From: a virus
Lineage: Duplodnaviria; Heunggongvirae; Uroviricota; Caudoviricetes
Virus record (IMG/VR): IMGVR_UViG_2617270948_000002
Location: 1 to 32,175 of that record
Strand: one strand, 5' to 3'
Length of the DNA: 32,175 nucleotides
Position numbers: made by a program. Positions within the stretch are counted from its first letter, which is position 1. Each line of letters starts with the position of its first letter. Positions 30,701 to 32,175 of this stretch are shown here, piece after piece.

Positions 30701-32175
30701 GATTCTACCTATATATTCTCCGAGAACACCAATCCCGATCAGTTGCACGCCACCCAAGAAAAGTATTGATACAAGCAGGGAGGGATACCCGCGTACTGGG
30801 TTACCAAAGACAAGGGTGTCTATAATCATCCATGCACCATATAAAAACGAAATGCTTGCAACAAACAAGCCTATATAAGTCCATACGCGAAGAGGAAAGG
30901 TTGAAAAACTTGTGATACCTTCCAGTGCCAGATTCCATAATTTCCAGCCATTAAATTTTGAGATGCCAGCAACACGCTCTGCGCGTACATATTCAACGAC
31001 ATCTGTCTGACCACCCACCCAGCTCAGTATGCCTTTCATGAAAAGATTGCGCTCAGGCAACAGTTTAATGTTCTCCACAACCTCACGAGACATGAGTCGA
31101 AAATCTCCGACATTTTCCTCGATCTTTGGGGTGCTTATTTTGTTGTGTAACTTATAGAACCACTCAGCTGTCTTACGTTTCAGTCGTCCATCAGTTGAGC
31201 GGTCTGAACGTTTCGCAAGCACCATGTCAGCACCAGCCTGCCACTTTTCAATAAGATGAGGGATAACCTCAATAGGGTCTTGCAGGTCGACATCAATAGG
31301 AATTACAGCATCGCCGCTTGCATGGTCTAACCCTGCAAATAAGGCTGGTTCTTTACCAAAGTTGCGTGTAAATGACAGCGGAACAACTAGCGGGTCTGAA
31401 ACAGCCAGCGCGTTAATAATTGACTCTGTGGCATCTTTACTTCCGTCATTTATGAATACAATTTCTACTTCATATGGCTTCAACTCTTGGAATTCACGTA
31501 CCGTTTTATAGAAAACAGGTATCGCTTCTTCTTCATTGAAGACAGGAACGACAAGAGATATTTTCATTTCGCATCCCTAAAGACAATGAACTTTGAATAG
31601 ACGAAACCGCACACCAGACTGATGGCGGAGAAGGTGATAAGAGTGACTATTGGAGGAAGTGAGCATTTATCAGCTGCCCAACCAACAATCACACTCAATA
31701 TTCCCATAAATCCCACGTATAACATGTAGCGCATCGCTGTAGTCGATGCTTTGAATGTGAATCTTGCATTCGCGAAGAAGCTAAAGCTCACAGCCACTAC
31801 GAAACCTGTGAAGTTTGCCAGAGCCTGACTGGTATGTGCGGCATAGATACATACACCAAAAACCACCCAGTGTATAAGTGTGTTCAGCACACCTATAGAT
31901 GTGTACTTTACAAATAACTTTAACATTTATTTAATCAATGAGCTCTGAAAGGCATGAAGTCTATCATCCAAGTCTCAATTGATCGATACTTGCTATGTCT
32001 GATGAGACAAAACTGAGACACATAAGGCCTCACAATGGCTTGCAAGGCTTTACATGTTTTGATGTGGTGGGACGTGTGAGCGCAGTGTTGATGGGATAAT
32101 CCTTTGAATTACAAGCGGATTCTTATCATTCGTAATGCGAAGGTCGTAGGTTCGACTCCTATTATCGGCACCATT

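What the first reader, a model, noticed from the sequence alone, without database searches (positions are those of the whole stretch)
32127..32173. Prophage-host junction: 3' fragment of tRNA-Thr(CGU) as att core
Only the 3' 47 nt of a tRNA-Thr (anticodon stem through CCA) are present, with no D-arm upstream. That is the expected attR remnant of a phage integrated into the 3' end of a tRNA gene, with the intact tRNA regenerated at the int-proximal end outside this window. It fixes the prophage boundary at about 32173 and agrees with the thrW integration site used by Shigella serotype-converting phages and P22.
Basis: partly seen in the sequence, partly recalled or inferred. Interest (0 to 1): 0.4.

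Follow-up and report, generated by a model that had tools for sequence, protein, structure and literature searches.

The report
Prophage attR in thrW tRNA gene
The last 47 bases of the window are the displaced 3' end of the threonine tRNA gene thrW, left behind at the right-hand junction of an SfII-like O-antigen-converting prophage; this is the textbook, already published attachment site of the Shigella serotype-converting phages and P22, so it is ordinary.

Summary
Window 32127-32173 matches the 3' 47 nt of intact thrW tRNA-Thr(CGU) exactly. The 29 nt upstream do not match, and no 5' half or complete tRNA is in the window. Positions 32128-32173 are base for base the published 46-bp att core of phages SfI, SfII, SfV, SfX and P22.

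The 200 nt to its left are 199/200 identical to the P arm of the SfII attP. They follow gtrA-gtrB-gtrII, the cargo that always sits beside attP in these phages.

The window stops 2 nt after CCA, so on its own it cannot separate attR from attP. Relatives settle it:
- A chromosome 100% identical over the last 11.5 kb continues into host genes, not into int.
- Three complete E. coli genomes with related prophages show proB-proA-thrW(intact)-int-xis...cargo-core fragment.
- BL21(DE3) shows the empty site.
- The flanks recombine as expected: attL = B+P', attR = P+B'.

The crossover is most likely in the anticodon loop (about 32129-32135), not at 32173. The other end of this particular prophage could not be reached, and the window's left end lies in an IS element.

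This is already known and of low interest.

The parts
32128..32173 (+). 46-bp att core, the 3' part of thrW tRNA-Thr(CGU) from position 31 through CCA. At attR this is the displaced tDNA fragment.
   Evidence: Exact match to the published core ATTCGTAATGCGAAGGTCGTAGGTTCGACTCCTATTATCGGCACCA (PMC3636060) and to intact thrW.
32127..32127 (+). C that extends identity with thrW to 47 nt. This is a lineage variant: SfII attP has A here.
   Evidence: The C-containing junction has 0 hits in IMG/VR. With N at this base there are 90 matching stretches, and the 84 P-arm junctions among them carry A or G.
32129..32135 (+). Anticodon loop TTCGTAA (anticodon CGT at 32131-32133). Inferred 7-bp overlap region, where Int exchanges strands.
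   Evidence: Positions follow from the alignment to thrW. That the crossover is anticodon-centred is an inference from the fragment's extent and Islander's class A sites (PMC4383910). It was not tested here.
32174..32175 (+). TT, the first two bases after CCA. They are shared by attP, attB, attL and attR, so they do not discriminate. The window ends here.
   Evidence: In E. coli SCU-124 the perfect attL/attR repeat is exactly these 49 nt, C+46+TT.
32005..32126 (+). Conserved P arm of the attachment site.
   Evidence: 199/200 identical to the SfII attP left flank. Nearly invariant from about -122 to -1 across 38 distinct P-arm variants from IMG/VR, while the sequence further left diverges.
32068..32073 (+). 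TGGGAC, a candidate Int arm-type binding site (P arm).
   Evidence: TGGGAY occurs twice in the P arm. It also occurs twice, followed by a TGGGTT variant (three tandem copies), in the P' arm of SfII attP, all on one strand. Background is 0.40 per kb per strand. This is an inference only.
32092..32097 (+). TGGGAT, a second candidate Int arm-type binding site (P arm).
   Evidence: Inference only.
32018..32057 (-). Stable hairpin (17 pairs with one bulge) followed by a U-rich tail, terminator-like. In attP it lies downstream of int, across the core. In the prophage it lies upstream of gtrA.
   Evidence: RNA fold of the 116-nt stretch 31985-32100(-) containing the hairpin gives -25.9 kcal/mol, z = -3.1, and 0 of 200 shuffles fold as well. 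Terminator-like hits. Annotated as a putative rho-independent terminator in KC736978. Conserved.
31564..31926 (-). gtrA, first gene of the O-antigen glucosylation operon, transcribed away from the att site.
   Evidence: Pfam GtrA_DPMS_TM, E = 1.9e-14. Annotated gtrA in SfII.
30644..31567 (-). gtrB, bactoprenol glucosyltransferase.
   Evidence: Annotations of the matching DNA in SfII and E. coli; PF00535.
29180..30640 (-). gtrII, the serotype-specific glucosyltransferase.
   Evidence: 98.9% DNA identity to SfII over window 25000-32175. The exact protein is found on many chromosomes, PF14264.

Best explanation
The fragment is the core of attR, the right-hand junction of an SfII-like serotype-converting prophage (a myovirus with lambdoid early genes) integrated into thrW. 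The phage attP carries a copy of thrW from the anticodon loop to CCA. A lambda-type tyrosine integrase, helped by IHF, recombines attP with thrW, most likely inside the 7-nt anticodon loop. The phage-borne copy then completes thrW at attL, next to int, so the cell keeps a working tRNA. The original 3' part of thrW is displaced about 40 kb away to the gtrA end, where it is seen here with the phage P arm on its left. Excision needs Int plus Xis acting on attL and attR.

Shown here: the sequence identities, the flank exchange pattern in relatives, and host DNA beyond the core in an identical chromosome.

Inferred: the exact crossover point, the arm-type sites, and the presence of attL in the genome this window came from.
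For: 1. Exact 47-nt match to thrW with no 5' half.
2. Identity to the published 46-bp core of the thrW-integrating phages.
3. The left flank is the SfII attP P arm, 199/200, preceded by gtrA/gtrB/gtrII.
4. CP112983.1 (L015) is 100% identical over window 20701-32175. After CCA it continues into a diverged allele of the thrW-downstream host DNA, then LysR-family and other chromosomal genes, with no int.
5. BL21(DE3) shows the empty site proB-proA-thrW-LysR remnant-paoD.
6. In YZ22MPE54, attL is attB-left (100%) plus attP-right (98%), and attR is attP-left (100%) plus attB-right (96%).
7. Three complete genomes have intact tRNA-Thr(cgt) next to int at the far end, with the fragment in the same orientation.
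8. In IMG/VR the P-arm side of the junction is conserved in 84 junctions, while the other side has more than 40 different sequences. That is what many independent attR and attP contexts would give.
Against: The window ends 2 nt after CCA. These two bases (TT) are the same in attP, attB, attL and attR, so nothing in the window itself proves that host DNA follows.

The other end of this particular prophage was not recovered. The window's left end (1 to about 772) is an IS3-family transposase gene whose junction with phage DNA was found in no complete E. coli genome or GTDB representative. The int-proximal part may therefore be deleted or moved.

The crossover position rests on general knowledge, not on data from this sequence.
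Confidence: 0.9

Rival explanations
1. The fragment is attR of the prophage and also the junction with a second integrated element, the vat pathogenicity island that also occupies thrW. In that case it is an internal joint of a tandem array rather than the border with ancestral chromosome.
For: Nine of ten chromosomal places carrying the identical GtrII protein continue after CCA with TTCTAACGTCTCCCC..., then a truncated Arm-DNA-binding integrase gene and the vat autotransporter gene. E. coli SCU-124 is 100% identical over the last 776 nt of the window. Its perfect attL/attR repeat (49 nt) ends exactly where the window ends.
Against: The only place 100% identical over 11.5 kb (L015) has thrW-downstream host DNA, not the vat island. 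The vat-flanked places are 98.9-99.8% identical. Either way the fragment is still the prophage's attR.
Confidence: 0.25
2. The window is from a free, excised or record-linearised phage genome. The fragment would then be the attP core, with int starting just beyond the window.
For: In SfII records the same P arm and core are followed 12-17 nt later by the stop codon of int. The window's last two bases fit attP equally well.
Against: The left end of the window is an IS3-family element that is absent from SfII and related phage records. The 100% identical relative is a chromosome with host DNA after the core. The C at 32127 appears in none of the 84 P-arm junctions in IMG/VR, including the 9-10 attP-type ones, but it is in 10 of 11 chromosomal attR copies that sit beside this gtrII prophage.
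Confidence: 0.05
3. It is a decayed tRNA pseudogene or a chance resemblance, unrelated to site-specific recombination.
For: None beyond the absence of the 5' half.
Against: The match is 47/47 and ends sharply at the anticodon stem. There are 0 matches in shuffles. The sequence is identical to an experimentally defined att core. The attP arm next to it is conserved.
Confidence: 0.01

Closest known systems
attP/attR of Shigella flexneri serotype-converting phage SfII (KC736978 / NC_021857; AF021347)
   Same: The 46-bp core is identical. The 200-nt P arm is 199/200 identical. The gene order is the same: acyltransferase, ISSfl9, gtrII, gtrB, gtrA, att. DNA identity is 98.9% over window 25000-32175.
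   Different: C instead of A at the base just 5' of the core (32127). The window's early region differs (isrK/C4/ant module, IS3-family element). Close relatives are E. coli chromosomes rather than Shigella.
att sites of SfI, SfV, SfX and Salmonella phage P22 (thrW, next to proA)
   Same: The same 46-bp core and the same layout gtrABC-attP-int-xis (PMC3636060). P22-like Salmonella phages align with the window through gtrB-gtrA-P arm up to the CCA.
   Different: The serotype-specific gtr gene differs. The virion modules differ (P22, Sf6 and SfX are podoviruses). The P arm is diverged in P22-like phages, about 75-78% identity.
Phage lambda attP/Int/Xis/IHF system with the sib/tI retroregulator
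   Same: A heterobivalent tyrosine-integrase logic: a core flanked by P and P' arms, repeated arm motifs (2 in P, 3 tandem in P'), int abutting P', and a terminator-like hairpin across the core from int.
   Different: Lambda's attB lies between gal and bio, not in a tRNA gene, and its core is 15 bp. Binding of Int, Xis or IHF and any sib-like function were not tested here.
Islander/TIGER-type tDNA islands, anticodon-centred class A
   Same: A regenerated tRNA gene at one end and a displaced 3' fragment at the other mark the element's ends. A fragment that starts at the anticodon loop is the class A pattern (PMC4383910).
   Different: None in principle. This is one instance of that class.

Membership tests
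Displaced tDNA fragment at attR of a tRNA-integrated element | Fragment identical to the 3' part of a tRNA gene and lacking the 5' part | tested here: met
   47/47 identity to thrW positions 30-76. Upstream sequence is unrelated. No 5' half in the window. ARAGORN finds 0 tRNAs and Rfam scores below threshold.
Displaced tDNA fragment at attR of a tRNA-integrated element | Element DNA on the 5' side of the fragment | tested here: met
   SfII attP P arm (199/200), then gtrA, gtrB, gtrII and the tail genes.
Displaced tDNA fragment at attR of a tRNA-integrated element | Non-element (host) DNA on the 3' side of the fragment | not testable with these tools
   The window ends 2 nt after CCA. The feature is met in L015, which is 100% identical over 11.5 kb (host allele of the thrW-downstream DNA, then LysR-family genes), and in L002, L003 and L116.
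Displaced tDNA fragment at attR of a tRNA-integrated element | Intact cognate tRNA gene in the same orientation, with an integrase gene beside it, at the other end | not testable with these tools
   This lies outside the window, and the source contig could not be retrieved. The feature is met in three related complete genomes.
P22 / SfI-SfII-SfV-SfX att site | 46-bp core ATTCGTAATGCGAAGGTCGTAGGTTCGACTCCTATTATCGGCACCA | tested here: met
   Exact at 32128-32173. Core sequence as printed in PMC3636060.
P22 / SfI-SfII-SfV-SfX att site | gtrABC cluster immediately beside the att site, with gtrA nearest | tested here: met
   gtrA starts at 31926(-), 201 nt from the core. The layout is stated in PMC3636060.
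P22 / SfI-SfII-SfV-SfX att site | int-xis on the other side of attP (or next to thrW in the lysogen), with Int of the SfII/P22 family | not testable with these tools
   Not in the window. Present in SfII and in L002, L003 and L116.
P22 / SfI-SfII-SfV-SfX att site | Recombination actually occurs at this site (attP x attB gives attL + attR) | tested here: met
   Shown by comparison only. The flank exchange pattern among BL21 attB, SfII attP and YZ22MPE54 attL/attR has 96-100% identity in the expected combinations and 22-35% (ungapped) in the others. No experiment was done.
Functional tRNA gene | Complete cloverleaf (acceptor 5' strand, D arm, anticodon stem 5' strand) | tested here: not met

The most novel reading that the evidence does not exclude
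The conserved P-arm hairpin (32018-32057, minus strand) might act like lambda sib/tI. In the free phage it would sit downstream of int across attP and destabilise or terminate int transcripts. After integration it would be separated from int and would instead shield the gtr operon from read-through coming from the chromosome or a neighbouring island. In addition, the C at 32127 could mark a heteroduplex product that places the overlap region one base further 5' than the canonical 46-bp core.
Probability: 0.2. Interest if true: 0.2.

Novelty: already known. Interest (0 to 1): 0.05.

Why it matters
It has practical value only. The fragment gives a clean right-hand end for the prophage and identifies the element as a thrW-integrating, O-antigen-glucosylating SfII-type phage carried by E. 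coli or Shigella. It also shows that thrW is occupied, as it is in a large share of E. coli genomes: the 49-nt core has 7584 copies in 5017 genomes. It opens no new biological question.

Tried and rejected
1. Reaching the int-proximal end of the source prophage. Exact-protein look-ups with window proteins near the left end (ant; theta-like 75 aa) returned 10 places each, none with the IS junction or CP112983.1. A cluster look-up showed that all left-end proteins sit on 170 to 1000 or more contigs, so none is specific enough. A search for SfII Int homologues gave only 90%-cluster representatives, which do not target the source genome.

2. The IS/phage junction at about 772. It was absent from GTDB representative genomes, from complete E. 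coli genomes and from all fetched loci.

3. IMG/VR as the source of the window. No contig has the C-variant junction, and none of the 90 N-variant hits is 32175 nt long.

4. Mapping the crossover from polymorphisms. The core is invariant, and the +3 T/A polymorphism after CCA can be explained by phage alleles, so it is not informative.

5. Williams 2002 (PMC100330), on where crossovers fall within tRNA genes, is not held. No paper on the P22 att structure was found. The anticodon-loop crossover therefore rests on Islander's summary and on recalled knowledge.

6. Strict IHF consensus WATCAANNNNTTR. There is no perfect match in the window's P arm, only two one-mismatch sites.

7. tRNA pseudogene or chance match. 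Rejected.

Full report
**What is in the sequence**

The window ends ...cggattcttatC ATTCGTAATGCGAAGGTCGTAGGTTCGACTCCTATTATCGGCACCA tt. I aligned it, right-justified at CCA, to the intact 76-nt tRNA-Thr(cgt) genes of E. coli YZ22MPE54 and SCU-124.
- Window 32127-32173 matches 47/47.
- Only 6 of the preceding 29 positions match.
- These 47 nt are tRNA positions 30-76: the last two bases of the 5' strand of the anticodon stem, the anticodon loop TTCGTAA (32129-32135, anticodon CGT at 32131-32133), the 3' strand of the stem, the variable loop, the T arm, the acceptor 3' strand and CCA.
- ARAGORN finds no tRNA in the window.
- Rfam's tRNA model reaches only 14.9 bits against a gathering score of 29.
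- The 5' half of thrW is absent even with three mismatches.
- The 46-nt core occurs once, with none in 100 shuffles.

**What surrounds it**

Directly to the left, on the minus strand, lie three genes:
- gtrA (31564-31926; Pfam GtrA_DPMS_TM);
- gtrB (30644-31567);
- gtrII (29180-30640).

Before them come a frameshifted ISSfl9 transposase gene and an acyltransferase gene. Further left is a complete set of myovirus tail, head, terminase and lysis genes.

Window 25000-32175 is 98.9% identical to Shigella phage SfII (KC736978). In that record the same core is followed 12-17 nt later by the stop codon of int, then by xis. An older SfII record annotates the site as attP, 'similar to P22 attP'.

The SfI paper prints the 46-base core ATTCGTAATGCGAAGGTCGTAGGTTCGACTCCTATTATCGGCACCA. 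It states that the core is identical in SfI, SfII, SfV, SfX and P22, that these phages integrate into thrW next to proA, and that gtrABC always lies directly beside attP, followed by int and xis (PMC3636060). Window 32128-32173 is that sequence exactly.

**attR or attP?**

The window stops two bases after CCA. Those two bases (TT) are the same in attP, attB, attL and attR, so the window alone cannot decide. Related sequences can.
- The exact GtrII protein is encoded on many chromosomes.
- One of them, CP112983.1 (L015, a 4.39-Mb chromosome), is 100% identical to window 20701-32175.
- After CCA it reads tttaaatcaataagttaTCTCGCATTTAAG..., followed by LysR-family, short-chain dehydrogenase and other chromosomal genes. 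It has no int.
- That flank is a diverged allele (about 92% identity over the aligned part) of the DNA that directly follows an intact thrW in phage-free strains such as BL21(DE3). There the order is proB-proA-thrW-LysR remnant-paoD-paoC.
- In nine other places (98.9-99.8% identical) the core is followed by ttCTAACGTCTCCCC..., a truncated Arm-DNA-binding integrase gene and the vat autotransporter gene. There the prophage sits in tandem with the vat island at thrW.

In every chromosomal case the fragment is the gtrA-side junction of the prophage. No chromosomal case has int next to it.

**The other end in relatives**

Three complete E. coli genomes carry related prophages: YZ22MPE54, SCU-124 and LR-50. 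All show proB-proA-thrW(intact)-int-xis-...early genes...-late genes-cargo-core fragment. The intact tRNA-Thr(cgt) and the fragment are in the same orientation, about 38-42 kb apart.

A four-way comparison of 200-nt flanks behaves exactly as site-specific recombination predicts:
- attL of YZ22MPE54 is 100% identical to BL21 attB on the left and 98% identical to SfII attP on the right.
- attR of YZ22MPE54 is 100% identical to attP on the left and 96% identical to attB on the right.
- All other combinations are at 22-35% in these ungapped comparisons.
- The window's left flank is 199/200 identical to the attP P arm.

The perfect attL/attR repeat is 56 nt in YZ22MPE54, 49 nt in SCU-124 and 48 nt in LR-50. 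Identity runs on for 2-17 nt after CCA, depending on the host allele.

**How it most likely works**

The phage carries a copy of thrW from the anticodon loop to the 3' end. A lambda-family tyrosine integrase recombines attP with thrW. The phage copy then completes the gene at attL, and the original 3' part is displaced to attR. This is the general principle used by Islander to map islands (PMC4383910).

Islander distinguishes anticodon-centred crossover sites from T-loop or junction sites. A fragment that begins one or two bases before the anticodon loop is the anticodon-centred pattern. I therefore infer that strand exchange takes place within TTCGTAA (32129-32135). On that reading, most of the fragment (32136-32173) is the original host copy, and the physical phage/host joint lies at the left edge of the repeat, not at 32173. 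This step is inference and recalled knowledge; it was not tested here.

Further anatomy of the site:
- The P arm is conserved from about 32005 to 32126 in 38 distinct variants from IMG/VR, while sequence further left diverges with the cargo.
- The motif TGGGAY occurs at 32068 and 32092. It occurs twice more, followed by a TGGGTT variant, as three tandem copies in the P' arm of SfII attP. All are on one strand, against a background of 0.40 per kb per strand.
- This two-plus-three arrangement resembles the arm-type Int sites of lambda-type attP. Binding was not tested.

1. The canonical core is 46 nt. The 47th matching base (C at 32127) is a variant. SfII attP and the 84 P-arm junctions in IMG/VR have A or G there, whereas 10 of the 11 chromosomal attR copies that sit beside this gtrII prophage have C.
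2. 'Boundary at about 32173' is the outer limit of the tRNA-derived repeat, not the crossover.
3. The window's left end (1 to about 772) is the 3' part of an IS3-family transposase gene that runs off the window. Its junction with phage DNA was found in no complete E. coli genome, GTDB representative or fetched locus. This prophage may therefore be interrupted or truncated upstream.

**How common it is**

The 49-nt core query finds 7584 places in 5017 of 5426 complete E. coli genomes, with up to four per genome. Displaced thrW fragments are thus routine. In IMG/VR, 84 junctions share the P-arm side, while the other side has more than 40 different sequences.

**Verdict**

This is a correct observation with a correct interpretation. 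It is a textbook, published att site and an ordinary prophage junction. It is not novel and is of low interest.

Noticed in passing
window 1-772: The 3' part of an IS3-family transposase gene (Pfam rve, rve_3, HTH_21) runs off the left end of the window and abuts the phage isrK/C4/ant region. This IS/phage junction was found in no complete E. coli genome, GTDB representative or fetched locus. The prophage may be interrupted or truncated on its early side.
   Followed up: partly
window 956-1793: Rfam hits to isrK (956-1028, 60.7 bits) and C4 antisense RNA (1053-1138, 72.7 bits) lie directly upstream of a Bro-N/P22_AR_C antirepressor gene (1185-1793). This looks like a P1/P7 immI-like module in which a small RNA controls an antirepressor, sitting inside a lambdoid early region.
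   Followed up: no
window 32018-32057 (minus strand): A conserved, stable hairpin with a U-rich tail. The 116-nt stretch containing it folds at -25.9 kcal/mol, z = -3.1. It lies in the P arm, across the att core from int in the phage form, the same position as lambda sib/tI. In the lysogen it lies upstream of gtrA. SfII's record annotates it as a putative terminator.
   Followed up: partly
window 32127: C here extends identity with thrW to 47 nt. SfII attP and the 84 P-arm junctions in IMG/VR have A or G, while 10 of the 11 chromosomal attR copies beside this gtrII prophage have C. It could be a lineage SNP or a resolved heteroduplex at the edge of the overlap region.
   Followed up: partly
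window 32127-32175: The window ends exactly at the last base of the 49-nt perfect attL/attR repeat (C+46+TT) seen in E. coli SCU-124. This suggests the record or window was trimmed at an att repeat. No explanation could be verified.
   Followed up: no
window 26102-28790: An acyltransferase gene (26102-27151, minus strand) and a frameshifted IS4-like ISSfl9 transposase gene (27601-28790) lie between the tail-fibre assembly gene and gtrII, the same arrangement as in phage SfII.
   Followed up: partly
L001 6775-12482; L006-L014: In most E. coli chromosomes that carry this exact GtrII, the attR fragment is followed directly by a truncated Arm-DNA-binding integrase gene and the vat autotransporter island. 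This is a tandem array of two elements at thrW.
   Followed up: partly
window 31927-32126: Only one GATC (31981) lies upstream of gtrA. From memory, the phase-variable P22 gtr promoter has paired GATC sites within OxyR half-sites, which do not seem to be present here. Not examined further.
   Followed up: no
L116 6629-8830: A closely related thrW prophage in E. coli LR-50 carries an autotransporter gene and an invertible tail-fibre segment (pinE remnant) in place of the gtr cluster at the attR-proximal cargo position.
   Followed up: no
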